Shown piece by piece: positions 19,391 through 59,543 of a stretch of DNA of 64,000 bases. The stretch covers positions 3,160-67,159 of the forward strand of contig FR897805.1 in NCBI GenBank assembly GCA_000437495.1, written 5' to 3'. Each line of letters opens with the position of its first letter. Positions within the stretch are counted from its first letter, which is position 1. This DNA comes from Prevotella sp. CAG:485 (GTDB lineage Bacteria; Bacteroidota; Bacteroidia; Bacteroidales; Muribaculaceae). Under the pieces are notes generated by a model. The model did no database searches. It was not told where the DNA came from and was given only the letters and a program-made list of their open reading frames with translations. A program made the position numbers and the translations under genes.

Positions 19391-19575
19391 ATGGGGTGAT
19401 TTTATGGCTAAGGTGATTGGGAAGGGGAAGGGAGTTTAGGGAATTAAGGGCTTTAAGGAATTTAAGGAGCTTAAAGAGGTGAGGGAAAATAAGGATCTTA
19501 AGGAGTTTAAGGAATTTAAGGAGCTTAGGGAGATTTGGAAGGGTAAGGGGGAAGGGGAGAAGGCAAAGAAAAACT
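19391..19575 (+). repeat. Purine-rich (G+A) low-complexity intergenic tract A with internal degenerate tandem repeats of about 48 bp (TTAAGGARTTTAAGGAGCTTARRGAG).
   Basis: Read directly from the sequence. The plus strand has almost no C and is G/A/T-rich. It belongs to the same family as the tracts at 35671..36052 and 40236..40447. Confidence 0.6.
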
Positions 19576-34708: not shown

Positions 34709-35566
34709 ATGGCAGATCTGACATCAAAAGAATGGCGCGACCTTGTTTTTGAAGGTAAAAACAAAGAATTCGGCGCATACCAGCTTCGCAAGGCAAGTGA
34801 CAAACGTCACAATCTTGCAGTGCTGTTTACTCTGATTGGCTTAGTAATTATCGCCCTGTTAGTATGGGGCTGGTCAACTTACTCAGCTTACCGCGCTCGC
34901 GTGGCAGCCGAAGAAGCTCTTGCAGCAGAACGTATGCAGGCAGCTCAGTTTGAGGCTGAAGCAGAGCAGGAAGAAGAGGAAGAAGAACAGAAATACGAAG
35001 AGGAGAAGAAACCTGAAATGCCTAAGGAAGAGGTTGTAGCCACTGTGCAGCAGACAGCTATCGCCATCGTGCCCCCCGATAAGGTGAAGAACGAGGTGAA
35101 AGACGTTGTTGAACAGCAGGAAAACAAAGAAACCGTAGGTACTATAAACCAGGAAGGTACCGGTGATATTGACCGTGCCAAGATTCTTACCTCAGAGGTT
35201 AAGATAGCACCCGCTCCTGTGGTAGAAGAGAAACCGCAGCCTAAGAATGAACCGGAGAAAGTGTTTGAGGCCGTAGAACAGCCGGCAGCTTTCAAGGGCA
35301 ATGTAAACAAATGGCTGTCATCTCACATCAACTACCCGCCGGCAGCAGCTGACGCCGGTGTTCAGGGCAAGGTTCTGGTTCGTTTCATCGTCAATAAGGA
35401 CGGCTCTGTTTCTGACGTAACCGTGCTTAAAGGTGTAGACCGCGACCTCGACAAAGAGGCAGTGAGAGCCGTAAGATCGATGCCGAAATGGCAGCCCGGC
35501 AAGAACAATGGTGTAGCCGTTCGCTCTTACTTCACACTCCCCGTAGTATTCCGTCTTGGTAACTAA
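34709..35566 (+). CDS. tonB: Energy transducer TonB.
   Basis: A TM anchor is followed by an acidic Glu-rich and Pro-rich linker and a C-terminal TonB domain (GKVLVRFIVNKDGSVSDVTVLKGVD). Confidence 0.8.
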   Translation: MADLTSKEWRDLVFEGKNKEFGAYQLRKASDKRHNLAVLFTLIGLVIIALLVWGWSTYSAYRARVAAEEALAAERMQAAQFEAEAEQEEEEEEQKYEEEKKPEMPKEEVVATVQQTAIAIVPPDKVKNEVKDVVEQQENKETVGTINQEGTGDIDRAKILTSEVKIAPAPVVEEKPQPKNEPEKVFEAVEQPAAFKGNVNKWLSSHINYPPAAADAGVQGKVLVRFIVNKDGSVSDVTVLKGVDRDLDKEAVRAVRSMPKWQPGKNNGVAVRSYFTLPVVFRLGN

Positions 35567-35629
35567 TCTTTGAAAGCATAGAGCTTCAGTGATGAGGCTT
35601 ATGTGAGAAAAGATTTAAGTTTGATAAAA

Positions 35630-35666
35630 AGGAGTCCGGCAAAGAGTTGCCGGACTCCTTTTTTGC
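35630..35666 (+). terminator. Rho-independent terminator of the tonB operon.
   Basis: Hairpin GGAGTCCGGCAAAGAGTTGCCGGACTCC followed by TTTTTTG. Confidence 0.65.
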
Positions 35667-35670
35667 TGAC

Positions 35671-36052
35671 GAGGCTATGTGAGGCATGGGAATTTTGGGA
35701 ATTTTGGGAGGCATGGGAGTTTTGGGAATGATGGGAATTATGGGAGCTATGGGAATAGACGACAGTTTAAGGAAGAAAAGGCTTATTGGTGAATGTGGCT
35801 GAGGCTTTAAAGGGAAGGGGGCAAGGGGCTTTAAAAGGAAGGAGGTAGAGCCTTTTTGGGGAAGGTAATAGAGGGCGTTTGAGAGCATAGAGGCTTTAGA
35901 GGATAGGAGGCAGAGACTTAAAAGAGAGGGGATAGAAGATGAAGATGTAAGGAAGGGGAAGGTTGGGTGAAGTGAGAGAGGAGGGAGGAATAGGAAGGGA
36001 GGGGTGTGGTAAAGAGGAGAGAAAAAGGGGAGGATGAAGGGGGAGGAATTTG
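35671..36052 (+). repeat. Purine-rich (G+A) low-complexity tract B.
   Basis: It begins with about 10 tandem 9-mers of the form GGGARNNNT (35671..35759), followed by degenerate GGCTTTAAAGGGAAGG-type units. The only ORF here, 35586..35888(-), is a proline-rich translation of the CT-rich strand and is judged spurious. Confidence 0.6.
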
Positions 36053-36351
36053 CGGTTATCAGAGTTTTGCATTAAATTTGCATATTATAATGCCTCAGAA
36101 AGTAGGATATAGGTTTTTTATGTTATTGTGGCAACGATAATGGTGTCGTTGCTGTCGGCTTCTTTGCAGGCAGCACCGCCTTTGCCTGGAGCAAGTGCGC
36201 TTGCGCGGTCATACGCCGATGAATATACTGATTTGCACGGTCTGCCGGCTGATGTGTTGCTGAAGAAGGGCGCCTATTATCACGATATCCGGCACAGGCT
36301 CGACTCGGCAATGGCCTGCTTCTCGATAGTGGCTATGCGCACACGCCTAAT

Positions 36352-37008
36352 ATGGGTCAGAAAGATGCTGAGGAGTGTCTGGGAGGCTACTATGGCCGCT
36401 GGCAGACGCAGTTCTTCAACACAGCCAATTTCCTCGGCTCGTTGGAGGATTTGCAGATGGCTGAGGAGATTATAAATCGCCATAATCTCTCAAAGACGCT
36501 GCTTTATTACTGTTATGGCTGTGTGTATATGACCTTGGCTGTTAGCACTGATGACGACGAATATGACCATAAATCGTCGATTATGTTGCGGGCGTCGTAT
36601 CAGCAGGCATATAAGGAGAAAGATTATCGCACAATGCACCGGGCTTTCGACAATCTTGTGTCGGTGTACAGGGTGCGTGAGAGCATTGACAGTTTAGCTC
36701 CTGAGGCGGCGATAATGTACAGGCTGAAAGAACCGGAGATGTGGCGTCGCAAAGTGTCGCTGCTGATTTATGAGGGTGCTTTGGCGCAGGAAAAAGAGGA
36801 CTATGACAAGGCGCTGGCCAAATACAATGAATTGATACAGACCATTCCGCAGGATTTGGAGAACGGCAGGTATATGGCTTCGGCATACCTCAAACGCAGT
36901 CGTGTGGAACGTTTGATGCAGAAGCCCGAAGTAGCGCTGGAAACGCTCAAAGAGGCACTACGCCTGACTTACCGGTATGAGATAGCGGATGTGCGGTCGA
37001 GCGTGTAG
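36352..37008 (+). CDS. N-terminal TPR-like fragment of a disrupted TPR/TM/AraC-type regulator. The locus is a likely pseudogene (see findings).
   Basis: It ends at a TAG at 37009 that is in frame with the next ORF. ORF 36128..36475, in a different frame, encodes a plausible further-upstream N-terminus, which suggests an additional frameshift near 36300-36350. Confidence 0.4.
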   Translation: MGQKDAEECLGGYYGRWQTQFFNTANFLGSLEDLQMAEEIINRHNLSKTLLYYCYGCVYMTLAVSTDDDEYDHKSSIMLRASYQQAYKEKDYRTMHRAFDNLVSVYRVRESIDSLAPEAAIMYRLKEPEMWRRKVSLLIYEGALAQEKEDYDKALAKYNELIQTIPQDLENGRYMASAYLKRSRVERLMQKPEVALETLKEALRLTYRYEIADVRSSV

Positions 37009-37014
37009 GCGGCC

Positions 37015-37791
37015 ATGACGGATGTGCTGCGTACTTTGGGCCGCGAACAGGAGGCCGATAAGACCAATATGCATTATATGGAGCTCAAGGACTCCATTAT
37101 GAACAGCCGCTATGTTATTAACTGCGAGCAGATAGGCTTCAACAATGAGCGCAATAAGCTTCAGCAGGCACTTGGCAAAGCCGAGAGTCAGCGCACTTTT
37201 CAGACGTGGCTTTTAGTGTTGTGTGTTATAGTGATACTGACCGTTACGGTATCTCTGCTGGCCATACGGCGCAAGAACAGGCGGCTGCGCGACCAGTCGG
37301 AGGTGCTTTACCGCCAGTTGCAGGAGAGTCTTCGACAGGAAGATGAGCGCAATGAAGCGGAAACGCCCAAACCTGAAGAGACCGGCGTGCGTTATCAGAA
37401 CTCGAACCTTGACCAGGAACAGAAACTGGCTCTTGCCGACAAGATTCGGTTGGCAAGTCGCAGCGAGGAGTTTCTCAATCCCGACTTTAACCTTACACGT
37501 CTGGCGGATATGATTGACACCTTGCCGAGGTATGTGTCACAGACTGTCAATGAAATCTTCAGGTGTAATTTCTCCACATACGTCAATCAGGTTCGCATCA
37601 GAGAGGCAATGAGGCGACTGGGCAATAACCCTAAATATGCATATTATTCCATAGAAGGCATAGCCGAGTCGGTGGTCTTCAAGAGCCGCAGCGGCTTTAC
37701 TGCATGGTTCAAACGCATAGCCGGCCTGTCGCCGTCGGAATACAGGCGCATGGCTCAGAAAGATCAGAAAGATTCCGACAAGAAGTCTTAA
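37015..37791 (+). CDS. C-terminal fragment of the same regulator, with a TM helix, a coiled-coil and an AraC-type HTH domain.
   Basis: It is in the same frame as 36352..37008, separated only by a TAG and two codons. The C-terminus (...YVNQVRIREAMRRLGNNPKYAYYSIEGIAESVVFKSRSGFTAWFKRIAGLSPSEYRR) is an AraC/XylS HTH. Confidence 0.6.
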   Translation: MTDVLRTLGREQEADKTNMHYMELKDSIMNSRYVINCEQIGFNNERNKLQQALGKAESQRTFQTWLLVLCVIVILTVTVSLLAIRRKNRRLRDQSEVLYRQLQESLRQEDERNEAETPKPEETGVRYQNSNLDQEQKLALADKIRLASRSEEFLNPDFNLTRLADMIDTLPRYVSQTVNEIFRCNFSTYVNQVRIREAMRRLGNNPKYAYYSIEGIAESVVFKSRSGFTAWFKRIAGLSPSEYRRMAQKDQKDSDKKS

Positions 37792-38001: not shown

Positions 38002-40129
38002 ATGAGAAAATTTCTACTCACACTCAGCCTGGTCCTTGCCATGACAACACTGGGCAAACCGGTGCAAGTCGGGAACATCTTCTATGAGATAACCGGCGCC
38101 AACACAGTGAAGGTAATGCCCGACCGCAGCAGCAGTCCTACTTCCAACAGCTACAAAGGCGACATCGAGATACCGTCGACCGTAACCATCGACGGCAAAA
38201 CCTACACCGTGAATGAAATCGGCACACGCGCCTTCAGCAGCTGCTATAACCTCACAAGCCTGAAAATGCCGAACACGATTGTCCGTATCGACAGCTCGGC
38301 CATCAATTCATGCTACAAACTGACTACTCTGGAATTGTCCGGTTCAGTACGCGTCATCGAGAATATGGGCATCAGCAGCCTTCCGTTGACCAAACTCACC
38401 CTGAACGAGGGTCTCGACTCCCTTGGCTATCAGGCCATTGCGATGCTTAACTCACTTCCCGACACCCTTAATCTGCCGGCCTCGTTGCGTGCCATGGCTC
38501 CCGGCGGTGTTGGTTTCTGCCACAAGCTGACGGCATACTCCATTCCCGAAAGTAACAAGAACTTCAAAACGGTGGATGGCGTAATCTTCAGCAAAGACGG
38601 CAAGACCCTGTGGGCCTTCCCGTGCTACATAGAGTGTCCCGATGGCTACACTCTGCCCTCAGGAGAAACCGCATTGAGTCTTACGGCATGTCGAATCTTG
38701 ACCGCCTGCACAGTTCACCTTCAGCTATACCACCTGCGACGTAGCACCTTACGCCTTCTACAGCAGCGCAAAGCTGTATAACATTGAGCGAGCCACTTCC
38801 GTACGCACCATCGGCACCGCCGGTTTCGGCAGCTGTATCCGTCTTACCAAAATTGAGTTTGGCTACAATCTGCAGCGCATAGACTCCGCAGGCCTTGCCA
38901 GCGTAGGTTCCTCGCTTATCAAAAACAGCGACGGTCTGCCCGAACACGCAGTAATCAGTCTGAGCGGCTGCCGCGCACTGAAATATATAGGCAAACGTGC
39001 ATTTACCAGCGGCTCCGTTGAACAACTGGATATTCCGGCAGCTGTAGACACCATAGAGAATGACGCCTTTGTGTTTGCCTCTTATCTGAAACGCATTGAC
39101 GTGGCCAGCGCCAACCCAAGGTTCGTTTCCATAAACGGTGTGCTTTATGACCGCGACATGACCACGTTGCTCTGTGTGCCTGCCAACTACGAGAATCAGC
39201 TGTTTGAATTCCCCAAAGGAGTTAAGCACATTGGTGCCAACGCCTTCTTCAACTGCCGCAACATGCGCGAAGTTGTGCTTCCCGACGACCTGGAAAGCAT
39301 GGGCGATGAGGCTTTCTACTACTGCGGAATCTTCCGTGTCATCTTCCCCGCAACGCTCACCCATCTTCCCATCAACTGCTTTGCCTATACAGCTCTCACA
39401 GATGTAGTTGTTCCTTCAACCGTAACAAGCATGGATGGCGGCGTATTCAGCAACTGCCAGAGCCTTGTCAGCGCTCAGCTTCCCGACGAGCTTCCATACG
39501 TGGCTCCCAGCACATTCTTCAACTGCGTAAATCTTGAAAAGGTGAATATTCCCCATGATGCTGAAGTAGTTGGCTACAACTCGTTCAATAACTGCTACAA
39601 GCTCACCAAAGTGGTTATTCCCAACAAAGTTCGCGAAATAGAATACCGTGCTTACGGCTGCAACTTCAACCCTTACAACCACGGCACTCTCGACACCCTT
39701 ATCTTAGGCAAAAGCCTGACTACCATTGGCAGCAATGCTTTTGTAGGACAGAACATGATTAACTACATCAAGAGCTACAATACAGTTCCGCCGGTAGTAG
39801 ACGAAGAAGGCGCCTGGACCTCAACCGCACACAATAAAGCCATGGTATGCGTTCCTCAGCAGTCGCTTCAGACCTATAAGAGTGCTTCTATCTGGAGCCT
39901 GTTCAAGAATTGGAGCGATTTCATCTTAGATGTAAACGGAGTTTCCGAAGATAACCTGCAATATCGCACCAGTGAAGGCGCAATTGAATTCCAGGGCGAA
40001 GGCTTAATTGAGGTCTACAGCATTTCCGGAACGTGCATCTACCGTGGCCAGGCCACTCGCTTAGAGGTGCCTGCCAAGGGTGTTTACATTATCCGCGCCG
40101 GAGGTCAGACCGCCAAGGTTATTCTGTAA
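38002..40129 (+). pseudogene. BspA-type leucine-rich-repeat surface protein with a T9SS C-terminal sorting domain. It is split by at least one frameshift near 38660-38705 (or carries a sequencing error there).
   Basis: ORF 38002..38781 carries a signal peptide and LRRs but degenerates into non-LRR sequence after about residue 225. A different frame is open from 38702 and reads continuous LRR sequence (PPAQFTFSYTTCDVAPYAFYSSAKLYNIE...) into ORF 39071..40129. That ORF has no ATG, only a GTG, and ends in a classic T9SS CTD (...KGVYIIRAGGQTAKVIL). ORF 38681..39364(-) is an antisense artefact. Confidence 0.6.
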
Positions 40130-40235
40130 AAGAGATCAATCGTTATATAGCATAAGCATTTTTTTCAGCCCTTTGGCTGAGCCCTAAGTGAATGAGGGTG
40201 CGTCGTAGGTATACGGTGCATCCTTTTTTTGCGGC

Positions 40236-40447
40236 GAAAGTTAATGAGGGAGGCCGGCAATATGGCTGACGGAAGGGGCGCTGAAGCGCTGAGCCGAAAC
40301 AAATTTTTGGCGGGAAAGGAGAGTGGAAGGCTGGGAGAGAAGGGGGCGCTGAAGCGCTGAGGCGAAACAAATTTTTGACGGGAAAGGGATTATTGGTGAG
40401 GGAAATTGGGTTGGTGTGGGTTTGAGGGAAGAGAAAGGAAGCCGCGC
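40236..40447 (+). repeat. Purine-rich (G+A) tract C, containing two copies of a roughly 46-bp direct repeat (GGGGCGCTGAAGCGCTGAGSCGAAACAAATTTTTGRCGGGAAAGGA).
   Basis: Read directly from the sequence: the copies are at 40275..40320 and 40343..40392, giving a period of 68 bp. The tract lies between the convergent LRR and M6 protease genes. Confidence 0.6.
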
Positions 40448-40496
40448 CTATTCGTTAGACGCAGCTTCGCTCAGATTATGGGAGCTATTAAGTGGC

Positions 40497-42779
40497 TTAG
40501 TAAGCTATCTTGATGGTTTGTTTGCCGTTGGTAACAATGTAGATGCCCTTGGAGGGGAGGGTCATTGTGGCATATCCGTCGGTGGCGACGGCGTTGCCTA
40601 TTTTGCGGCCGGTGTAGTCATAGACAGAGATGATGGCGTTCTCTGAGAGCACTGTGAGGATGCCGTCGGCAGAGATATAAGCGTTGAGCGAGGCAGCCTC
40701 ATCGGTGAATATGCCATTTACGGCCGAGTTGATGCCGCGCATGTGTACGTCGTCAACATAAACGCGTTTTGAGTCGGAGCCGGTAACGACTTTGAGCTGA
40801 ATGCAGAGGCTGTCGCGGGCTGATTCGGGAATGTTGAAGCGCAGAGTGACGGCGCTGTTGGCTTCGAGCGTTGTACCCATCTGACCGTGAGTGTCTTCAA
40901 GCACTACCCAGCCGCCTACTTCTTTGTCGTAATACTGCACACGGACGTTTGAGGTGCGGTCGGCAGAGTTGAAGAGACGCATGCTCATGTTGCTGGCGTC
41001 CTTAACAGCCGAAGTGGTGAGCGTGCCACCCTTGAGCAGACCGGCAGCCTTGGTGCCGTTACAGAGCGTTGAACCGGGCGAATATACGCCGCCTTTGGTG
41101 AATGACCAGTTGCAATATTTGCCGGCAACGTTCTTTGCCGAAGTGCCGCTTGTGGTCATATTCTCGAAGTCTTCGCAGTCGTTGCCTCCGGCGGCTTTGG
41201 TGGCTTTGAAAGTGATGACGCCGTTGCTGTCTTCGTTGATTTCCTCAAGCTGCAGATTAACGTTGAAGCGGTCGTTCCAGCTTATGAGAGCCGGTTCGGT
41301 GAAAGGACCTACCTCATGCACATTGCCGGAACCGGGGAAGGGGTCGCCGTCGCTGTCTTTTATTGCCAGTCCGGTGCCATTGGGTTTGGCACGAACCATC
41401 TCATAGTAGTTGTGTGAGGGGTCGGCATTGATGGTATTGTTTGACCACTGCTGAACGTCGGTGGAGTCCACGCGATATATCAGCATGCCTTCGCCGGGGA
41501 GATATGTGTTCCACTTGGTGCCCGTTTTGCGGCGGTTTTCAAGCAGGAAATATTCGCGGGAGTTGGAAGTGTTGATGATGAAACCCTCGCCGTTGAGGTC
41601 GATGTTATGGAGCGTGAAGCTGCCGGGGTTGGTGATGCGTTTCGGCACGGTGAAGTTGCTCTGATAGCGTTGCAGCAAGGAGTACCCAACAGGAGTGCGC
41701 GAGTAGTTGTTGTAGCTGCCGCCGGCCATGATTGACCAGGCACCCGGGTCGACGCTCTGGCCGCCGCTGCCGGAGTAGTCGGTGTCATACTCGTCCATGA
41801 GACCGAGCACATGGCTGAACTCGTGGCAGATGGTGCCGATGCCGTCGATGCAGTTGTAGAGGGTAGTGCCGTAAAGCTCTGTTGAGCAGGCATAACGGCC
41901 CAGTTTAACGCCGTCGTATACATGCTGCGGCATGGAAGAGGCGTGCGGCCAAACCAGACGCGAGTCGTTGCCGGTGTTGTTGGAGCCTAAGCCGGCAAAG
42001 ATTACGTAGAACATATCAACAACGCCGTCGCCGTCGGTGTCATACTTCGAGAAGTCAATCTGGGAGTCGAGTTTGTCGAGAGCCGCTTTGATAACGGTGC
42101 GGGTATTGGTTGTACGCTGAATGTAATATTGCGAATAATCGACAGATACGGGTCCATAGACATCAAAATTCGGACTGAATTTCTGATAGCTGTTGTCGTA
42201 GAAATAGTCGCGGACACTGCCCGTGTAAACCTGCTTGGAAGAGGCACCAGACGGAGTGAAGCCCGTGTAGTTCTCCTTGTTCATGATGTCGTTGAACAGC
42301 GAGTTGGTGCTCGGCTGAGTGAAACTGCGGTCGTTGAAGGAGATGAGAATGACAAGACCTTTGAACTTCTTATAGTTATAATTGCCGCGCAGGAGACCGT
42401 TTGTCACATTGGCCTGAGCGGCTTGGCGCATCTGTTTTTGTTCCGAAGAGAGGTCTTGCGTCAGACCTTTTGGTATAGAGGCGAGGAAAGCGTTTTCAGC
42501 GGGAGAGCGGAGTTCTGCATCAGTGGCCGCGAAGGCGCTGGGCTGCAGCGAGCCGTTGTCGGCTGCAATGGCATAGCGCCATACACCCTGAGCATCCTGA
42601 AGCACGGTATAGCCGTCGATTGTGGTGAGGAAGCTGTGGAATTCGTCGCCATGAAGGCGCCCGGTGAAGAAAGAGCCGTCGGGCTGCTTCACCTGTCCCG
42701 GTGCCGGATTGGCCTGAACTGCCATCGATACTCCTGTTCCAAGGAGTGCCAGAAGCAAGGATAGGATAAATTTCTTCAT
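40497..42779 (-). CDS. M6-family (immune inhibitor A / InhA-like) zinc metalloprotease with a T9SS C-terminal sorting domain.
   Basis: Has a signal peptide and the zinc-binding motif HEFSHVLGLMDEYD (HExxHxxGxxDEY). The C-terminus ...KGIYIVTNGKQTIKIAY is a type-A CTD. Confidence 0.85.
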   Translation of the reverse strand: MKKFILSLLLALLGTGVSMAVQANPAPGQVKQPDGSFFTGRLHGDEFHSFLTTIDGYTVLQDAQGVWRYAIAADNGSLQPSAFAATDAELRSPAENAFLASIPKGLTQDLSSEQKQMRQAAQANVTNGLLRGNYNYKKFKGLVILISFNDRSFTQPSTNSLFNDIMNKENYTGFTPSGASSKQVYTGSVRDYFYDNSYQKFSPNFDVYGPVSVDYSQYYIQRTTNTRTVIKAALDKLDSQIDFSKYDTDGDGVVDMFYVIFAGLGSNNTGNDSRLVWPHASSMPQHVYDGVKLGRYACSTELYGTTLYNCIDGIGTICHEFSHVLGLMDEYDTDYSGSGGQSVDPGAWSIMAGGSYNNYSRTPVGYSLLQRYQSNFTVPKRITNPGSFTLHNIDLNGEGFIINTSNSREYFLLENRRKTGTKWNTYLPGEGMLIYRVDSTDVQQWSNNTINADPSHNYYEMVRAKPNGTGLAIKDSDGDPFPGSGNVHEVGPFTEPALISWNDRFNVNLQLEEINEDSNGVITFKATKAAGGNDCEDFENMTTSGTSAKNVAGKYCNWSFTKGGVYSPGSTLCNGTKAAGLLKGGTLTTSAVKDASNMSMRLFNSADRTSNVRVQYYDKEVGGWVVLEDTHGQMGTTLEANSAVTLRFNIPESARDSLCIQLKVVTGSDSKRVYVDDVHMRGINSAVNGIFTDEAASLNAYISADGILTVLSENAIISVYDYTGRKIGNAVATDGYATMTLPSKGIYIVTNGKQTIKIAY

Positions 42780-43573
42780 TTGAAGTGATTGATTGAGGTT
42801 AGTTAGTTTGTTCCAACTTTGGAATGTGAGTTTTTTCTATGCCACGAAATTAATATAATTTTTATGAAATTACAAACTACGTTCGGCAGGAGGCACAATT
42901 TTTATGCATATACATTCCGTATTTTTAAATAGGAACCATGTAATCAGGCGTAAATTCCATGGAATCATAGATTATGTAAACAACGGCAAGGTAAAGGGTT
43001 TTGAAAGAGGTTATATGCGCAATGAATGGCCAGATTTTACATCAAAATAACAGGATACGAAGACTGCTGAATTTAACTAATCTACATATATATAAATATA
43101 TATATAGCCTGAAAGCGCCCTAAAAACTCCTTAAATGGGGTTGAAAGTATCAGAGTAAAGGAATAAAAGGAAAAATTATTTAAGATTAATTAACATTTGG
43201 GATTGTTGTATTTTATAAAAATATTATTAATTTTGGGCGAATTTTTTTCGGAAAGCACCGGACGGATTCAAAAGCTTTTTCGGTTAAACAGTATAAAAAG
43301 ACTCACTTTTTAAAAAGCGAAGGAACAAATCCATTACTTAATAAGGGTCAGACGGAAAAGGCGAAGATAGTTGCACTAAGCTATAGCACATCCTTGCGCG
43401 GAACGAATAAGTCGCATTAAAAACAAGAGCAACTTCATTTTCCGTATGAGTCACACTAAAGGTCGCTGATTAAAAAAAGACGAAATTAGACTGTTAACTA
43501 TATCACTAATCTTCTGTTTCGGAGTAAAAGGATTCAACTCCGGAATTACATCAAACGAATCCAACAGAACAAA

Positions 43574-46500
43574 ATGCGAAAACCTATTCTTGGACTTATG
43601 GCAGCCTCATTGGCAATAGCCATAGCCGCGCCCATCGGGGTGAAACAGGTGCTCACAGTGAAGACCCAGCGGACGGAGAAAGCCGTTGAGCAGGGTACAG
43701 CTGCCGAGACTCTCACCACTCCGACGCTGCAACAGCCATCATTCGAGGGTCGCAGCGACATCAAGAGCGCTCCCAACGACGATGCACAGAAGGAGTCGAC
43801 CGTACAGCTGGCTCCCACGCGCAACGCAAACGGACTCTTCCTGGAAGATTTCCAACAGAACGGAACTGTAAAGTTTATTGACGTAGAAAACGATGGAAAA
43901 TGCTGGTATTGGGGTAGTTCCTCCAAATGCCTCATCCACTCGTACGACGGCGAACACAACAAAGATGACTGGGCTATCCTCCGCAAACAGGTGCAGTTGG
44001 AAGCCGGCAAAGTCTACAGCCTCAGCCTCGACACTCGAGTATATTCTGCAGGCACCAAAGAGAAATTTGCAGTAATGTTGGGCAATGACTCAACAATCAG
44101 CGCCATGACCAATGTGGCAATGAGTACTGTAACAGTCGACAACGGCAGTTACGAAAACATCCACTCGGTATTCACAGTGCCTACCACCGGAAAATACTTC
44201 ATCGGTATTCATTCCGAGACACCGAAGGGCGGCACATACGTCTATGTGGATAACGTGGCTATTTCCAACGCCATGAATCCCGGCATCCCGTGCGAAATCA
44301 CCGACCTGCTGGTTACAGCACCCGGCACCGACGGCAAAGCTAACGTAAGCTGCACGGCTCCGAGCAAGGACATCAGTGGCGCAAATCTGTCGAGCATCAC
44401 CAAGATAGAATTCTGGCGCGACGCAACTCCGATTAAGACTATCGACAATCCGACACCCGGCCAGAAGATTTCCTTCGTTGATGAATGTGGCGCAGGCACT
44501 TATACCTGGTCAGTTTCAGTTACCAACGCCAGCGGAACATCGTTTGTAGCTTCTTTCAAAGAGACCGTTATCGGCCCGCGTGGTATTCCTTTCCTCAAGA
44601 CCTTCCCCACGGCTGACTCAATGAAAGAAATGACCATTCTTGACGCCAATAATGACTCCAAGACATGGTATTGGGACCAGTATCAGAAATATGCAGCTCT
44701 GAGTGCGCCTGAGACGGGCGACGACGACTGGTTGTTCACACCCCCGTTGATGCTAAAAGCCGGCAAAGTTTATGAATGGTCTTCACTTATCAGCGCAGGT
44801 AACCCCAATGCCTTCCCGCCCATTGTAGCCGCTTCTATAGGTAATGCTCCTACGGCTGAGGCTATGACCATTGAACTTGCTCCCAAAACTACCATCACCA
44901 AATATGACACCTATTTCTCAAAAGAATTCAGTGTTCCTGCCGACGGTCTTTACTATCTTGGCATACATGGTTGCTCAGAGCAATGGCTGGCCCTTATCAA
45001 GTTGATGAATATCAATGTTGTTGGTGGCGCCGAACTGGAAGGCCCCGCCAAGGTTAATGATGCAATTATTGAAGCTGACTGGAGCGGTCGCACCAAGGAT
45101 GTAAATATCTCTTTCAAGGCTCCGACCAAGACGGGCAGCGACAAGCCGCTTAACTCAATTACCAAGATTGAGATTATGCGTCAGGGCATTGTACAGAAAA
45201 CTTTCAATAACCCCACTCCCGGTGCTGAACTGACATACGTTGACAAGCCGGATGCTGCCGGTGAATACATCTACCGCATTGTGCCTTATAACAGTGCAGG
45301 TCAGGGTGGCGTTGTAGAAGCTACCGTTAACGTAGGCGCACCCGGCAAGAGCGTGCCTTATGTTGAGGACTTCTCTTCAGCTGACAGATGGGAAAATGAA
45401 CTGGTATTCATTGACGCTAACAACGACGGTACTTGCTTCTGGCATGCTACTTCCACTACTCCTCCCTATGCATGGGTTCACAATAACGGAAAAGATGGAA
45501 CTACATTCGACGATTACCTGATTACTCCGGGCATCGAACTCAAAGAGGGCGACACTTATAAGATTTCTGCCGACGCTTACGGTTATGGCCACAATATGAG
45601 CATCCTGATTGGTTCTGCTCCGAAGATTGCTGACCTTACCAATAACGTTAAGACTGAAACCCTTGGTGAAGACTGGGTTAACTACAGCGGCGAATTTGTA
45701 GCTCCTTACACCGGCAAATTCTATATCGGCATCCGCGACTTTGCTGAAGCAGGCAAGGCCCTCTCCGATTTCCATGTTGCCAATATCCGTCTCGACCGCA
45801 TTGGCGGCCCCGGCACTCCGGCAGCTATCACCAATCTCGTAATCACTCCTGACGCCACCGGCGCTCCGAAGATGACGTTCAAGTTCAACGCTCCTAACAA
45901 GACGTACGACAACAAGACTCTGGAAAGCCTGACGAAGGTTACCATCAAACGCGACGGTGCCGAAGTCAAGAGCTTTGAAAACCCGGCTCCCGGCGCAGCT
46001 CTGGAATACACAGACGCTCCCGGTGCTGACGGCGAATATTCATACACCTTCATGGCCTTCAACGACAAGGGCGATGGCTCTCCCACGGAATATTTAGGCT
46101 TCGCAGGCGTTGACCTGCCCGCTCTGCCCACTAATATCGTTGCTACCGATATGGGCAATGGCAAGGTTAAGATTACATGGGACCCCGTGACCAAGACTCT
46201 GCACGGCGCTGAAATTCCCGCTCCTCCCATCTATGTAGTGCTTGAATCAGGCGACACTGACGAAACTCAGCTTGGCCAGACAACGAAGTGCGAATACATC
46301 TACGACGCTTACGATGTCAACGAGCAGAAACATTTCTGGTATGCTATCTTCCCGTTCAACTCAAAGAACGAACATGGCAGCTATGGCAAATCAAACGACA
46401 TCTTCGTAGGCAAGGCTTATACTCTGAGCTTCCTGGAATCATTCGAGAATGGTTCGCCGAAATCACCGCTGGCAATCCAGCATCTCGTATTCTCACCGGC

Positions 46501-48304
46501 ATGGAGCCTCTGCACCGATGCCACCTTCAGCGACCTCAATTCATGCGACGGCGACAATGGTTTCCTCGCTCAGAAAGGTTACATCAATAACAAGAGTGTT
46601 GCTTCTACGGGCAAAATCAGCCTCAAAGACGCCATTTCTCCCACATTCTCCTTCTACATTGATAACATCAACCCGGAAGACTACCAGAACGAAATAGCAG
46701 TTGTTGTTAGAGAGGTAGGCAACCCCGAATGGCATGAAATTTATCACAAGAAGATTCGCGAAGTCGTTCCTAACAAGGGCTGGGGCCGTATCTCGGTTGA
46801 CCTGAAAGCTTGGAAGGGCAAAGACATTCACGTTGGTCTGATTCCTACTGTAAACTACACAGACGACACTCACGCTTCTTATTACAGCTGGACCCTCATG
46901 GACGCTCTGCGTGTTCATAACCTCACCAACAAAGACCTCGGCGGCAATATGATTATTTCGTCGGAAAGCGTTGACGCAGGTCAGGACGTTGACATCAACG
47001 TTACCGTTACCAACAACGGCGAGCAGCCTTCAGGCGCTTATCGTGTTGACCTCTACAAGAACAATAAGGTTGTTGACAGCCTCAACGGCGCAAGCCTCGC
47101 ATCAGGCAAATCGCAGGTTATCACCTTCTCGCAGGGCACAAACGTAGCAGACAAGGATCAGGTTGAATTCTTTGCTAAGGTTGTTCTTGCAGGCGATGAG
47201 AATGAGAAAGACAACACCACATCTGTTGGTACCATTAAGGTTAACAAACCTATCTACCCGGCAGTTAACGGCCTCGCAGCTGAAGAAATGGCCGAAGCCA
47301 AAGGCTCGATAGCAGTAACCTGGACCGCTCCTTCAATGGACCAAGTTCCTCCCACGCCGTTCACCGAAACGTTTGAAACCGCTCCGAGCTACAGCCTCAC
47401 AGACGCTTGCGGCTGGACCCTGGTTGACGTTGACAAGACTCCGGTTGCCGGCTTCCAGCAGTTCAACTTCCCCGGTATCACCATCGGTACCACTCTGGCT
47501 TCCTTCTTCGTTGTTGACAACACAGCTTCCGAGCTGGGTCAGTTTGCCAGCATCTTCGGCGGCAACAACGGCTCAAAGAAGAGCCTCGGCTCACTGCTCG
47601 CTTACAGCGGCACTCCCGACGACTGGGCTATCTCACCCGAACTCTACGGCGGCGCTCAGGTTGTTAGCTTCTACGGCAAGAACCTCCAGGACAATATGCC
47701 TGAAAAGGTTGAACTCTGGTACTCCACCGGTTCACTCGACCCCAACGACTTCATATTCGTGAAGAAGTGGGATCTCACCAACAGCGCTTATACCAAGTAC
47801 AGTGCATACATCCCCGAAGGCGCAAAACGCGTTGCTATCCGTCATAACTTCGAAGGTGGTATCCTTCAGGTCGACGACATCAACTTCCGTCGCGCCGGCG
47901 ATACCAAAGAGACCGTTACCCTCAAGGGTTACAACGTATACCGCGATGGCGAACTCCTGAATGAGAACCCCATCACCGCCATGCGTTATGTTGACACCAA
48001 CGTTGAGGAAGGTGACCACGAATATGCAGTAAACGCTATCTACGACAAGGGCGAGAGCAACAGCCGCACTGTTACTGTTCACTCCTCTTCAGTAGGCGAC
48101 GTTCTTGAAGGCAAGACTGCTGTTTATGGCAGCTACGGCACCATCGAGATTCTCAATGCATGCGGCCAGGCTGTAACGCTCGTAAGCGTCGACGGCACCG
48201 TGCTTTACAACGGCATCGGTCAGGACAACATGACCATCCGCGCTGCTGCCGGTATCTATCTGGTGAAAGTTGCTGACAAAGCTTATAAGGTAACTGTGAA
48301 ATAA
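43574..48304 (+). CDS. Giant (1576 aa) T9SS-secreted multi-domain adhesin-like protein.
   Basis: It has a signal peptide. Three roughly 130-aa beta-sandwich modules (F-D-x-NDG-x-W-W ... G-K-Y-Y/F-I-G-I-H ... V-D-N-V) resemble cleaved-adhesin / choice-of-anchor-J domains, and each is followed by an Fn3-like module (consensus ...PxKxxSxLxSxTKxxIxRxG...NPxPG...Y). A CARDB-like domain (DVDINVTVTNNGEQPSGAYRVDLYKNNKVV) and a further choice-of-anchor-J-like module follow. It ends in a classic type-A CTD (...AAGIYLVKVADKAYKVTVK). Confidence 0.85.
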   Translation: MRKPILGLMAASLAIAIAAPIGVKQVLTVKTQRTEKAVEQGTAAETLTTPTLQQPSFEGRSDIKSAPNDDAQKESTVQLAPTRNANGLFLEDFQQNGTVKFIDVENDGKCWYWGSSSKCLIHSYDGEHNKDDWAILRKQVQLEAGKVYSLSLDTRVYSAGTKEKFAVMLGNDSTISAMTNVAMSTVTVDNGSYENIHSVFTVPTTGKYFIGIHSETPKGGTYVYVDNVAISNAMNPGIPCEITDLLVTAPGTDGKANVSCTAPSKDISGANLSSITKIEFWRDATPIKTIDNPTPGQKISFVDECGAGTYTWSVSVTNASGTSFVASFKETVIGPRGIPFLKTFPTADSMKEMTILDANNDSKTWYWDQYQKYAALSAPETGDDDWLFTPPLMLKAGKVYEWSSLISAGNPNAFPPIVAASIGNAPTAEAMTIELAPKTTITKYDTYFSKEFSVPADGLYYLGIHGCSEQWLALIKLMNINVVGGAELEGPAKVNDAIIEADWSGRTKDVNISFKAPTKTGSDKPLNSITKIEIMRQGIVQKTFNNPTPGAELTYVDKPDAAGEYIYRIVPYNSAGQGGVVEATVNVGAPGKSVPYVEDFSSADRWENELVFIDANNDGTCFWHATSTTPPYAWVHNNGKDGTTFDDYLITPGIELKEGDTYKISADAYGYGHNMSILIGSAPKIADLTNNVKTETLGEDWVNYSGEFVAPYTGKFYIGIRDFAEAGKALSDFHVANIRLDRIGGPGTPAAITNLVITPDATGAPKMTFKFNAPNKTYDNKTLESLTKVTIKRDGAEVKSFENPAPGAALEYTDAPGADGEYSYTFMAFNDKGDGSPTEYLGFAGVDLPALPTNIVATDMGNGKVKITWDPVTKTLHGAEIPAPPIYVVLESGDTDETQLGQTTKCEYIYDAYDVNEQKHFWYAIFPFNSKNEHGSYGKSNDIFVGKAYTLSFLESFENGSPKSPLAIQHLVFSPAWSLCTDATFSDLNSCDGDNGFLAQKGYINNKSVASTGKISLKDAISPTFSFYIDNINPEDYQNEIAVVVREVGNPEWHEIYHKKIREVVPNKGWGRISVDLKAWKGKDIHVGLIPTVNYTDDTHASYYSWTLMDALRVHNLTNKDLGGNMIISSESVDAGQDVDINVTVTNNGEQPSGAYRVDLYKNNKVVDSLNGASLASGKSQVITFSQGTNVADKDQVEFFAKVVLAGDENEKDNTTSVGTIKVNKPIYPAVNGLAAEEMAEAKGSIAVTWTAPSMDQVPPTPFTETFETAPSYSLTDACGWTLVDVDKTPVAGFQQFNFPGITIGTTLASFFVVDNTASELGQFASIFGGNNGSKKSLGSLLAYSGTPDDWAISPELYGGAQVVSFYGKNLQDNMPEKVELWYSTGSLDPNDFIFVKKWDLTNSAYTKYSAYIPEGAKRVAIRHNFEGGILQVDDINFRRAGDTKETVTLKGYNVYRDGELLNENPITAMRYVDTNVEEGDHEYAVNAIYDKGESNSRTVTVHSSSVGDVLEGKTAVYGSYGTIEILNACGQAVTLVSVDGTVLYNGIGQDNMTIRAAAGIYLVKVADKAYKVTVK

Positions 48305-59010: not shown

Positions 59011-59271
59011 ATCCCGAATTCAGTGTTATGAAGAATTATCCGATATTTGTTAACAAAATAACTTCATTAGGGGTTCTGTGGAGCCGATTAAATTGATTAT
59101 GCGTCATGGGGTCTTGGTGGGTCTTGGTCTGTCATACTTGGCGATACAAAGGTAATATAATTTTTTTAAATAGGAGTTTCTGAGGGGCTTTCCGAGCCTT
59201 AAAAAGAGGGGCGCTGAGACTAAAATGAAAAAAAAGTTGGCGAAAAATTTTGTGGATTCAAAAAGTTGTCG

Positions 59272-59279
59272 TAACTTTG
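59272..59279 (+). promoter_or_regulatory. Candidate -7 box (TAACTTTG) for tRNA-Cys.
   Basis: Exact match to TAnnTTTG, 18 nt upstream of the mature tRNA 5' end. Confidence 0.45.
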
Positions 59280-59296
59280 CAGCGCAAAAAGGAAAC

Positions 59297-59420: not shown

Positions 59421-59543
59421 CACATAATTTCCGGCGCACAATTTACGGCACAGAATTTTGGGCGCAGAATTTTAGTCGCAGTGTTTTTCACCGCAGCCTG
59501 TTTTGCTAAGCTTATAAGGCCTCTGAAAGGGGAGAAGTGGATG

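What the first reader, a model, noticed from the sequence alone, without database searches (positions are those of the whole stretch)
35671..36052. Strand-biased purine-rich (G+A) intergenic tract B with a 9-bp tandem array
About 380 bp are almost devoid of C on the plus strand. The tract opens with about 10 tandem 9-mers of the form GGGARNNNT and continues as degenerate GGCTTTAAAGGGAAGG-like units. It is one of at least three such tracts in this window, with A at 19391..19575 and C at 40236..40447, plus a short relative at about 59190..59215. All are in the same orientation and share motifs such as GGTGAKKGGGAA and GGGCTTTAAGG. Homopurine-homopyrimidine DNA of this length can form H-DNA triplexes, and such tracts are unusual in bacterial genomes. 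They may be a species-specific repeat family, recombination or replication-slippage hotspots, or polypyrimidine-binding-protein sites on the transcribed strand. I cannot assign them to any known repeat or ncRNA family.
Basis: seen in the sequence. Interest (0 to 1): 0.55.

Follow-up and report, generated by a model that had tools for sequence, protein, structure and literature searches.

The report
Cytosine-poor low-complexity spacer after tonB
A real, species-specific stretch of about 480 bp of G+A-rich, almost cytosine-free, low-complexity DNA fills the apparently untranscribed gap between the tonB terminator and the next promoter in a human-gut Muribaculaceae bacterium; it most likely grew by local duplication and replication slippage and shows no sign of being a gene, a known RNA, a mobile element or a triplex-forming site.

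Summary
Window 35671-36052 has 18 C in 382 nt (4.7% against 25.6% background). It starts with eight 9-bp units and ends in a 135-nt C-free run, the longest in the window. It is not an assembly artefact: 15 other assemblies carry it almost unchanged, and two of them differ by exactly one 9-bp unit.

The DNA is not homopurine (20% T; longest purine run 24 nt; mirror arms of 9 nt or less), so H-DNA is unlikely. Tracts A, B and C share composition but not sequence. G-quadruplex motifs occur about as often as the composition predicts. Rfam finds nothing, and neither strand folds better than shuffled sequence. The ORFs in the tract are by-products of composition.

Tracts A and B each lie between an intrinsic terminator and the next Bacteroidetes-type promoter; C lies between two convergent terminators. 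Sister species lack A and B. B sits exactly at a synteny breakpoint, upstream of a broken regulator gene.

Best reading (about 0.6): lineage-specific filler built by slippage and local duplication.

One thing is unexplained. Unrelated 9-bp-period arrays recur after tonB and in other spacers across Muribaculaceae.

The parts
34709..35566 (+). tonB, the last gene of an exbB-exbD-exbD-tonB operon (context, left flank)
   Evidence: Pfam TonB_C, ExbD x2 and MotA_ExbB. The identical protein occurs in more than 1300 assembly blocks.
35567..35625 (+). Purine-rich segment between the tonB stop codon and the terminator. It is a diverged copy of tract segment 35878-35911.
   Evidence: Local alignment score 28 against shuffles at 17.8 +/- 2.6; 3 of 500 shuffles reach it. 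Repeat family D4.
35626..35663 (.). tonB intrinsic terminator: a 17-bp perfect stem with a 4-nt loop, an A-run on one side and a T-run on the other
   Evidence: Inverted repeat I1. Fold -32.1 kcal/mol, z = -6.5. The loop is inverted in L003.
35677..35757 (+). 9-bp tandem array (WTGGGARNN x 8, with a 27-bp super-period). It is the only length-polymorphic part.
   Evidence: TRF. 8 units in 14 assemblies, 7 in L003 and 9 in L006. Repetitive far beyond composition.
35758..35917 (+). Middle part: a few degenerate 23-31-nt units (GGCTTTAAAGG...). It holds 13 of the 18 C residues.
   Evidence: Repeat families D2 and D3. Not more repetitive than shuffles.
35918..36052 (+). 135-nt C-free, G/A-rich run with no detectable repeat unit. 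It abuts the -33 element of the next promoter.
   Evidence: Longest C-free run in the window. Repetitiveness equals that of shuffles. Contigs of three other assemblies end inside it.
36048..36080 (+). Bacteroidetes-type promoter of the downstream gene: TTTG at 36048-36051, 21 nt, then TAAATTTG at 36073-36080
   Evidence: Motif scan for TAnnTTTG and direct reading of the sequence. The consensus itself is from my own knowledge of Bacteroides promoters.
36140..37791 (+). Broken TPR-TM-HTH_18 (AraC-type, DUF6377-like) regulator gene with one frameshift and one in-frame stop (right flank)
   Evidence: Pfam. Translations. Gene calls differ between strains.
19391..19575 (+). Tract A: C-poor, with a (TTTAAGGAR) 9-bp array. 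It lies between the terminator of the TPR gene and the nqrA promoter, both on the minus strand.
   Evidence: Absent from the syntenic spacer of a related species. Invariant in 9 other assemblies.
40236..40447 (+). Tract C: G-rich, with a 68-bp unit repeated twice and a 62-nt C-free run. It lies between two convergent terminators.
   Evidence: Invariant in 2 other assemblies.

Best explanation
Tract B is lineage-specific, non-coding filler DNA.

**What it is.** It occupies the whole untranscribed gap between the tonB intrinsic terminator and the -33 element of the next promoter. It arose after this species split from its sister, at a junction where gene order changed.

**How it grew.** It was built by repeated local duplication and replication slippage of short seeds that lacked C. 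Three layers are visible: the 9-mer array, a few 23-31-nt units, and microsatellite-like G / GA / GGA / GGGA runs. Because every new piece copies a neighbouring piece, the strand asymmetry (G 43%, A 32%, T 20%, C 5%) propagates itself.

**What it does.** The tract probably has no sequence-specific function. At most it acts passively as a spacer between two transcription units.

**What is shown.** The anatomy, the position, the species-specificity, ongoing slippage by one unit, and an internal segmental duplication.

**What is inferred.** That slippage and duplication built the whole tract, and that it is selectively neutral.
For: - **Position.** A, B and C all lie outside predicted transcription units. 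A and B lie between a terminator and a promoter; C lies between two convergent terminators.
- **No conservation.** Sister species (TonB 87-89% identical) lose all similarity 2 nt after the tonB stop codon and continue with other genes. The syntenic TPR-nqrA spacer of a relative has a terminator and a promoter but no tract A.
- **Slippage and duplication seen directly.** Two of 16 assemblies differ by one 9-bp unit. The stretch before the terminator is a diverged copy of 35878-35911. Repeat families D1-D4 are present.
- **No homology between A, B and C**, so each arose locally.
- **Analogous tracts elsewhere.** Unrelated C-poor or G-poor tracts and simple repeats occur in intergenic DNA of other Muribaculaceae in either orientation. 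Examples are L019 (375 bp, G-poor, after tonB), L015, L011, L044, L057, L058 and L088. Their orientation relative to flanking transcription is mixed.
- **Nothing functional detected.**
  - No Rfam match.
  - No fold better than shuffles (z = -1.28 and +0.34).
  - No Pfam hit for any ORF in the tract that reaches significance or the family cut-off.
  - The 100-aa minus-strand ORF is frameshifted by a 1-nt indel in 4 of 11 assemblies.
  - G4 motifs occur about as often as composition predicts.
- **Relaxed constraint nearby.** The gene served by the adjacent promoter is a pseudogene.
Against: - The last 295 bp show no repeat structure beyond composition, yet 135 nt contain no C at all. Decayed repeats under an unbiased mutation spectrum should have acquired C. 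This needs very short-unit slippage, a mutational bias, or selection against C.
- The tract is nearly invariant within the species (pi = 0.0014; 3 SNP columns), which is no more variable than the flanking genes. However, species-wide diversity is too low (0.1-0.5%) to test constraint.
- Period-9 arrays recur at about the same offset after tonB in several species, with unrelated units. Period 9 accounts for half of the strong non-coding arrays in 1.33 Mb. Pure chance slippage does not predict this.
- All three tracts in the window carry one canonical G4 motif each. The joint expectation from composition is about 0.02.
Confidence: 0.6

Rival explanations
1. The tract is a DNA-level functional element. 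It could be a G-rich spacer that works as a barrier or insulator through G-quadruplex or R-loop formation. Alternatively, it could be a 9-bp-register binding array for a nucleoid or regulatory protein placed upstream of a promoter.
For: - The only three canonical (G3+N1-7)x4 motifs in the 64 kb lie one each in A, B and C, all on the plus strand; shuffles of the whole window give 0.78.
- The tracts sit exactly in terminator-promoter gaps.
- Period-9 arrays recur after tonB in other species.
- The C-free run is kept without any repeat structure.
Against: - Given the composition, G4 motifs are expected in 29%, 56% and 15% of shuffles of A, B and C. Only 5 of 21 tracts in the family have one, against 3.0 expected.
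- The array has 6-nt loops, and a G4-aware fold does not choose a quadruplex.
- Orientation differs between species at the same position.
- There is no sequence conservation at all.
- The promoter downstream of B drives a pseudogene.
Confidence: 0.14
2. The tract acts at the RNA level on read-through transcripts. Its C-rich, G-poor strand would be a Rho-loading (rut-like) site. Its G-rich, C-poor strand would be Rho-resistant or prone to R-loops.
For: - The minus-strand RNA of B would be almost unstructured (-11 kcal/mol over 394 nt), as rut sites are.
- Several tracts place the C-rich strand in the read-through direction right after a terminator: A, the peptidase side of C, L019, L011 and L027.
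Against: - B itself has the opposite polarity relative to tonB, as do L015, L061 and L032. About 7 tracts fit and 8 do not (my reading).
- Strong intrinsic terminators precede the tracts.
Confidence: 0.07
3. The tract encodes a non-coding RNA, for example a GGA-rich protein-sponge RNA of the CsrB/RsmZ type.
For: - The tract is about 380 nt, with a GGA or GGGA motif every 9 nt in the array and many more downstream.
- Tract A carries AAGGAG every 9 nt.
Against: - There is no Rfam match even at E <= 10 apart from noise over the terminator hairpin.
- The fold is not better than shuffles.
- No promoter motif is placed to drive it. The only TAnnTTTG upstream, at 35616, would start transcription inside the terminator hairpin.
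- No terminator lies at the 3' end of the tract.
- It is not conserved in the sister species.
- With no C, the hairpins that present GGA in CsrB cannot form.
- CsrA is not known in Bacteroidota (my own knowledge; not tested here).
Confidence: 0.06
4. The tract is an H-DNA or triplex-forming sequence that acts as a recombination hotspot.
For: - The tract is purine-rich.
- B lies exactly at a synteny breakpoint with the sister species.
- Intrastrand triplex motifs are linked to rearranged intergenic loci in E. coli (PMC4666352).
Against: - T interrupts the purines everywhere (20% T). The longest purine run is 24 nt, and the best purine mirror repeat has 9-nt arms with a 5-nt spacer and one mismatch.
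- There is no pyrimidine domain on the same strand, which intrastrand triplexes require.
- Tract A sits in a syntenic spacer that has not been rearranged.
- The 3' flank of tonB also differs between species that have no tract.
Confidence: 0.05
5. The tract is coding. One candidate is a 38-aa hydrophobic small protein encoded by the 9-mer array (35686-35802, MGILGILGGMGVLGMMGIMGAMGIDDSLRKKRLIGECG). The other is a Pro/Ser-rich protein on the minus strand.
For: - The ORFs exist.
- The 9-bp indels keep the reading frame.
- A gene caller called a 161-aa minus-strand ORF in one short contig.
- L015 has a similar hydrophobic repeat followed by a basic tail.
Against: - All three frames of the array are open, which is expected for a stop-free 9-mer.
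- No gene was called there in 10 long contigs.
- No Pfam match reaches significance or the family cut-off.
- The minus-strand ORF crosses the tonB terminator and is frameshifted in 4 of 11 assemblies.
- A C/T-rich strand lacks stop codons simply by composition.
- No consistent ORF appears across the species that have arrays.
- The ORFs are absent from the sister species.
Confidence: 0.03
6. The tract is the remnant or end of a mobile element, such as a MITE or IS with an internal minisatellite.
For: - It lies at the edge of a 12.8-kb segment that is absent from the sister locus.
- A weak 13-nt inverted repeat (85% match) brackets the tract.
- A MITE with an internal minisatellite is known in Porphyromonas gingivalis (PMC4596501; title and abstract only).
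Against: - No second copy exists in the window or in 1.33 Mb of related loci.
- There is no transposase or integrase among the 17 window ORFs scanned against Pfam.
- One arm of the inverted repeat overlaps the start of an ORF and is at chance level.
- There is no target-site duplication.
Confidence: 0.03

Closest known systems
Bacterial VNTR / minisatellite and 'cryptically simple' low-complexity intergenic DNA produced by replication slippage
   Same: - Head-to-tail 9-bp units whose copy number differs between strains (7, 8 or 9 units).
- Degenerate longer units and an internal segmental duplication.
- Intergenic and species-specific.
   Different: - Most of the tract (295 bp) has no detectable unit, yet it keeps an extreme strand bias, including a 135-nt C-free run.
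- Polymorphism is low.
- It is not coupled to promoter spacing or to an ORF, as contingency loci are.
H-DNA-forming polypurine-polypyrimidine mirror repeats, and the intrastrand triplex motifs of Enterobacteria (Holder et al. 2015, PMC4666352)
   Same: - Purine-rich strand.
- Intergenic.
- Sits at a locus that is rearranged between close relatives.
   Different: - There is no long uninterrupted homopurine mirror repeat (arms of 9 nt or less).
- There is no pyrimidine or Hoogsteen domain on the same strand.
- It is not a conserved multi-copy motif.
Potential G-quadruplex sequences, such as the pilE-associated G4 of Neisseria (my own knowledge)
   Same: - (G3N6)8 fits the canonical G3+N1-7 pattern.
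- One such motif occurs in each of the three tracts, always on the G-rich strand.
   Different: - The motifs are largely explained by composition.
- The loops are long.
- The motif is absent from most analogous tracts in relatives.
- It is not linked to a recombination or regulatory system.
CsrB/RsmZ-type GGA-repeat sponge RNAs
   Same: - About 380 nt.
- Many regularly spaced GGA-containing motifs.
   Different: - No promoter or terminator delimits a transcript.
- There are no hairpins to present GGA.
- There is no Rfam match.
- No partner protein is known in this phylum.
Rho utilisation (rut) regions: C-rich, G-poor, unstructured RNA
   Same: The complementary strand of B, and the sense strand of A, L019 and L011, would give long C-rich, G-poor, unstructured RNA just past a terminator.
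   Different: - Polarity relative to the upstream gene is inconsistent, and it is wrong for B itself.
- The tracts are far longer than typical rut sites.

Membership tests
VNTR / slippage-derived simple-sequence DNA | Head-to-tail repeat units above chance | tested here: met
   TRF finds period 9 x 7.9 copies and period 27 x 3. In the array, 42% of positions fall in repeated 8-mers against 2% in shuffles.
VNTR / slippage-derived simple-sequence DNA | Copy number varies between strains by whole units | tested here: met
   8 units in 14 assemblies, 7 in L003 and 9 in L006. There is no other length change inside the tract.
VNTR / slippage-derived simple-sequence DNA | The whole tract can be decomposed into repeats | tested here: not met
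   Segments 35758-35940 and 35941-36052 are no more repetitive than dinucleotide shuffles; 49-110 of 300 shuffles reach the observed value.
H-DNA (intramolecular triplex) sequence | Uninterrupted homopurine-homopyrimidine run with mirror symmetry, typically with arms of about 15 nt or more | tested here: not met
   The longest purine run is 24 nt. The best purine mirror repeat has 9-nt arms, a 5-nt spacer and one mismatch. T makes up 20% of the tract.
H-DNA (intramolecular triplex) sequence | Single-strand nuclease or chemical reactivity under negative supercoiling | not testable with these tools
   Needs S1 or permanganate probing.
G-quadruplex-forming element | Four or more G3+ runs separated by loops of 1-7 nt | tested here: met
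   Motif at 35688-35753, plus one each in A and C.
G-quadruplex-forming element | Motif frequency above what composition predicts, and the motif recurs in analogous tracts | tested here: not met
   56% of shuffles of B contain a motif. Five of 21 tracts in the family have one, against 3.0 expected. A G4-aware fold of the array picks no quadruplex.
Known non-coding RNA family (Rfam 15) | Covariance-model match at the gathering score | tested here: not met
   The only hit in the window is tRNA-Cys. At E <= 10 there are only sub-threshold hits over the terminator hairpin; the highest-scoring is 21 bits (E = 1) against a 56-bit cut-off, and the lowest E-value is 0.16 (18.6 bits against 50).
Known non-coding RNA family (Rfam 15) | Thermodynamic structure better than shuffled sequence | tested here: not met
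   z = -1.28 on the plus strand and +0.34 on the minus strand.
MITE / IS end | Several homologous copies, terminal inverted repeats and a target-site duplication | tested here: not met
   nhmmer with B finds only itself in 1.33 Mb. The tracts are not homologous to each other. There is only a 13-nt inverted repeat at 85% match. Limit: no complete genome was available.
Dispersed species-specific repeat family (A, B, C and the site at 59190) | Sequence similarity between members beyond shared composition | tested here: not met
   Smith-Waterman scores fall within the shuffle distributions. The motif tests are marginal.
Protein-coding gene | An ORF kept intact across strains, with homologues or a domain match | tested here: not met
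   The minus-strand ORF is frameshifted in 4 of 11 assemblies. No Pfam hit reaches significance or the family cut-off. No gene was called there in 10 long contigs.

The most novel reading that the evidence does not exclude
Muribaculaceae may repeatedly generate or maintain strand-asymmetric (C-free or G-free) spacers carrying tandem arrays of exactly 9-bp period in untranscribed terminator-promoter gaps, notably about 110-120 nt after the tonB stop codon.

The unit sequence turns over, but the period and the position persist. That pattern would point to a lineage-specific DNA-level mechanism that has not been described. One possibility is a protein that binds in 9-bp register, such as an insulator or nucleoid-organising protein. 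Another is a dedicated duplication process with a 9-bp footprint.

Tract B would be the largest example seen here.
Probability: 0.12. Interest if true: 0.6.

Novelty: new member of a known kind. Interest (0 to 1): 0.25.

Why it matters
On the likely reading, the tract matters mainly in practical ways.
- It is a fast-evolving strain and species marker for an abundant human-gut Muribaculaceae lineage.
- It is a place where metagenome assemblies break. Contigs end inside tracts A, B and C in several assemblies.
- It is a source of spurious ORF calls on the pyrimidine-rich strand.

It also shows that extreme local strand asymmetry can arise in bacterial intergenic DNA without any H-DNA-grade homopurine run.

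If the period-9 regularity across species reflects a real mechanism, these spacers would offer an entry point to an unknown aspect of Bacteroidota chromosome or transcription-unit organisation.

Tried and rejected
- **Whole-window Rfam at gathering threshold, and the tract at E <= 10.** Nothing apart from tRNA-Cys.
- **RNA folding of both strands.** No signal.
- **Pfam on the four ORFs inside the tract.** Only weak, sub-threshold hits, including a 'Collagen' hit at E = 0.0065 (16.6 bits against a 27.2-bit cut-off) caused by the Gly-X-Y periodicity.
- **Within-species test of constraint.** Diversity is too low (pi 0.1-0.5%) to tell.
- **Inferring the replication strand from GC3 skew, to test whether the G-rich strand is the leading strand.** Eight of 10 informative loci were concordant. 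However, per-gene GC3 skew varies from -0.49 to +0.35 within this window, so the estimator is unreliable and the result is inconclusive.
- **Rho/rut polarity.** Mixed.
- **Pattern scans of viral contigs for 9-periodic TTAAGG and GGGA arrays.** They returned 98 stretches and at least 120 stretches. The patterns are non-specific and probably match Gly-X-Y coding repeats. They were not followed up, and for the same reason no pattern scan of metagenomes was run.
- **Aggregate autocorrelation of 'intergenic' DNA.** Contaminated by coding 3-periodicity.
- **Shared-motif tests.** Marginal.
- **A possible homologue of tract A in L062.** The Smith-Waterman score was 56 against shuffles at 22 +/- 3.6. 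nhmmer gave only E = 0.004 in one direction and 0.85 in the other. It was left as a lead.
- **Similarity of tract C to the region upstream of tRNA-Cys.** Not significant.
- **A conserved small ORF after tonB across species.** No consistent ORF.
- **Literature searches for purine-rich, G4 or repeat elements in Bacteroidetes and Muribaculaceae.** Nothing describes such tracts.
Full report
**Organism and setting**

The window (51.5% G+C) comes from a very common human-gut member of the Muribaculaceae.
- The TonB protein encoded at 34709-35566 is found, residue for residue, in more than 1300 assembly blocks.
- NCBI labels it 'Prevotella sp.'.
- All 80 related genomic loci are Muribaculaceae-type MAGs.
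- Tract B follows the last gene of an exbB-exbD-exbD-tonB operon.

**Check of the observation**

Composition:
- Window 35671-36052 contains G165, A123, T76 and C18. C is therefore 4.7%, against a background of 25.6 +/- 5.7 per 100 nt.
- The binomial probability is 1e-27.
- The longest C-free run in the whole window is 35918-36052 (135 nt). The longest G-free run is 38 nt.

The array:
- TRF reports a 9-bp array at 35686-35756 with 7.9 copies, also seen as 27 bp x 3.
- Read out, it is eight units: ATGGGAATT TTGGGAATT TTGGGAGGC ATGGGAGTT TTGGGAATG ATGGGAATT ATGGGAGCT ATGGGAAT.
- So there are eight units rather than about ten.

The other tracts:
- Tracts A (19391-19575, 7 C) and C (40236-40447, 25 C, with a 62-nt C-free run) are real and G-rich on the same strand.
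- The 26-nt 'relative' near 59190 is not C-poor.

The tract is not an artefact:
- Ten long contigs from independent assemblies carry it with 97% mean column identity across the aligned 560-bp spacer region; inside the tract only three SNP columns differ.
- Five further assemblies carry it as well.
- The only length variation inside the tract is one 9-bp unit less (L003) or one more (L006).
- Several short contigs end inside tracts A, B or C, so these tracts break assemblies.

**Anatomy**
- Tract-like, purine-rich sequence begins right after the tonB stop codon. Segment 35569-35598 is a diverged copy of 35878-35911 (score 28 against shuffles at 17.8 +/- 2.6; 3 of 500 shuffles reach it).
- A perfect 17-bp hairpin flanked by an A-run and a T-run (35626-35663) is the tonB terminator (z = -6.5).
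- Next come the 9-mer array, about 160 bp with a few degenerate 23-31-nt units, and the 135-nt C-free run.
- That run ends at the TTTG of a Bacteroidetes-type promoter: TTTG, 21 nt, then TAAATTTG at 36073.
- The gene behind that promoter is a TPR-TM-HTH_18 regulator broken by a frameshift and an in-frame stop. Its gene calls differ between strains.
- Tract A lies in the same way between the terminator of a minus-strand TPR gene (z = -3.5) and the nqrA promoter.
- Tract C lies between two convergent terminator-like hairpins.
- All three tracts therefore occupy gaps that are predicted not to be transcribed.

**What the tract is not**

*Not homopurine, so H-DNA is unlikely.* T makes up 20% of the tract. 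The longest purine run is 24 nt. The best purine mirror repeat has 9-nt arms. The H-DNA reading is therefore weak. The intrastrand triplex motifs described in Enterobacteria need a pyrimidine domain on the same strand, which is absent here.

*Not a G4 element beyond composition.*
- The only three canonical G4 motifs in the 64 kb fall one in each tract.
- However, composition-matched shuffles of A, B and C contain a motif in 29%, 56% and 15% of cases.
- Only 5 of 21 analogous tracts in the family have one, against 3.0 expected.
- A G4-aware fold does not choose a quadruplex for the array, whose loops are 6 nt long.

*Not a known or structured RNA.* Rfam finds nothing. Neither strand folds better than shuffles.

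*Not coding.*
- The ORFs in the tract are artefacts of composition. All three frames of the array are open, and the C/T-rich strand lacks stop codons.
- No ORF has a Pfam match that reaches significance or the family cut-off.
- The 100-aa minus-strand ORF crosses the terminator and is frameshifted in 4 of 11 assemblies.

*Not a repeat family or a mobile element.*
- A, B and C are not homologous: 60, 87 and 164 of 300 composition-matched shuffles score as high.
- nhmmer with B finds only itself in 1.33 Mb of related DNA.
- No transposase or meaningful terminal repeat is present.

**Evolution**

Tract B is absent from the sister species:
- In the sister species (TonB 87-89% identical; L084 and L091), similarity to the window stops 2 nt after the tonB stop codon.
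- It resumes with genes that lie inverted at 59.0 to 50.1 kb in the window.
- Window 35.6-48.4 kb is absent from the sister locus.
- Those species have a different terminator, a small ORF and a crp-like gene after tonB.
- Tract B therefore lies at an evolutionary junction and is species-specific.

Tract A is species-specific too:
- A relative with 70% identical TPR protein has a syntenic 210-bp TPR-nqrA spacer.
- That spacer has a terminator and a conserved promoter but no tract.

Within the species, diversity is too low to test constraint. Pi is 0.0014 in the tract and 0.0002-0.0047 in the flanks.

**Family-wide context**

A scan of 1.24 Mb from 80 other Muribaculaceae loci found about two dozen C-poor or G-poor intergenic stretches of 100 bp or more, in either orientation. 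Examples:
- a 375-bp G-poor tract right after the tonB terminator in L019;
- a C/T-rich tract followed by an AAGGC-periodic tract in L011;
- a (GAGTA)n array in L088.

Polarity relative to the neighbouring genes is mixed, at roughly 7 against 8, which speaks against a general Rho-loading or anti-Rho role. An attempt to relate polarity to the replication strand through GC3 skew was inconclusive, because per-gene skew is too variable.

**An unexplained regularity**
- Among strong short-period arrays in 1.33 Mb, six of the twelve non-coding ones have period 9 or 18.
- In the 450 bp after tonB in 83 loci, the five strongest periodicities are all 9 bp.
- Three of them start 108-123 nt after the stop codon: L015, L044 and the window.
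- Their units are unrelated and the strand bias differs.
- No common small ORF explains this.
- TRF period counts point the same way, more weakly.
- Tract A also resembles a (YTTTARGGN)9 array upstream of a tRNA promoter in L062. The Smith-Waterman score is 56 against shuffles at 22 +/- 3.6, but nhmmer gives only E = 0.004 and 0.85.

**Verdict**

The feature is real and unusual in composition. The best-supported explanation (about 0.6) is lineage-specific filler, built by slippage and local duplication of C-free seeds in an untranscribed gap, next to a decaying gene and at a rearrangement junction.

Two points keep a functional, DNA-level reading alive at roughly 0.1-0.15:
- the repeat-free 135-nt C-free run;
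- the cross-species preference for 9-bp periods.

The literature searched describes nothing like this for Bacteroidota.

Noticed in passing
window 36140-37791: The gene downstream of tract B is a TPR-TM-HTH_18 (AraC-type, DUF6377-like) regulator split into three ORFs by one frameshift (near 36340) and one in-frame TAG (37006-37008). Gene calls differ between strains (218; 183; 125+58; 124; 90+84 aa), which suggests a decaying pseudogene.
   Followed up: partly
window 35568-59001, compared with L084 and L091: Relative to the sister species, window 50.1-59.0 kb is inverted. Window 35.6-48.4 kb (broken regulator, two BspA-type LRR proteins, an M6 peptidase and a 1576-aa surface protein) is absent from the sister locus. 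One breakpoint lies 2 nt after the tonB stop codon.
   Followed up: partly
L015 7831-7947; L044 10951-11029; L051 about 10915; L091 1957-2030; L028 2750-2813; L062 12347-12415: Non-coding tandem arrays with a period of exactly 9 bp and unrelated units recur in other Muribaculaceae. Three of them start 108-123 nt after the tonB stop codon, as in the window. Six of the twelve strong non-coding short-period arrays in 1.33 Mb have period 9 or 18.
   Followed up: partly
L062 12345-12450 and window 19491-19549: A G-rich (YTTTARGGN)x9 array upstream of a tRNA-Asn promoter in a distant Muribaculaceae MAG aligns with tract A over 59 nt at about 78% identity. The score is far above shuffles, but nhmmer support is only marginal. 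This may be convergence, or a real shared element.
   Followed up: partly
window 35643-35646 (L003): The 4-nt loop of the tonB terminator hairpin is inverted (AGAG to CTCT) in one assembly. This is a hairpin-loop inversion polymorphism.
   Followed up: no
L329-L331 (tract B), L105 (tract A), L108 (tract C): Contigs from several independent metagenome assemblies end inside the tracts: 384-437 nt after the tonB stop, at about window 19550, and at about window 40278. The tracts seem to break short-read assemblies.
   Followed up: partly
window 40275-40410: Tract C contains a 68-bp unit repeated twice (GGGGCGCTGAAGCGCTGAG..AAATTTTTG.CGGGAAAGG). Each copy carries a small GCGC-TGAA-GCGC hairpin.
   Followed up: no
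window 59240-59296 and L062 12474-12527: The promoter region of tRNA-Cys (TTGGCGAAAAATTTTG...TAACTTTGCAGCGCAAAA) is strongly conserved with that of a tRNA-Asn gene in a distant family member (score 56 against shuffles at 17.7 +/- 2.6). G-rich sequence lies upstream in both.
   Followed up: partly
window 59426-59481 and 59109-59128: There is a 14-bp tandem repeat (AATTTACGGCGCAG x 3.4) downstream of tRNA-Cys. There is also a 10-bp repeat (GGGTCTTGGT x 2) in the leader region of the crp-like gene.
   Followed up: no
window 38002-48304: The LRR, M6-peptidase and 1576-aa surface-protein genes have much more negative GC3 skew (-0.35 to -0.49) than most neighbouring genes. This fits a distinct codon usage or a distinct origin for the segment that is absent from the sister locus.
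   Followed up: no
L084 10998-11171 and L091 1769-1948: A small ORF of 57-59 aa (M.RKII..L...K.LFWLRHE...DERRF..DI) is conserved between the two sister-species loci just after tonB. It is absent from the window species.
   Followed up: no
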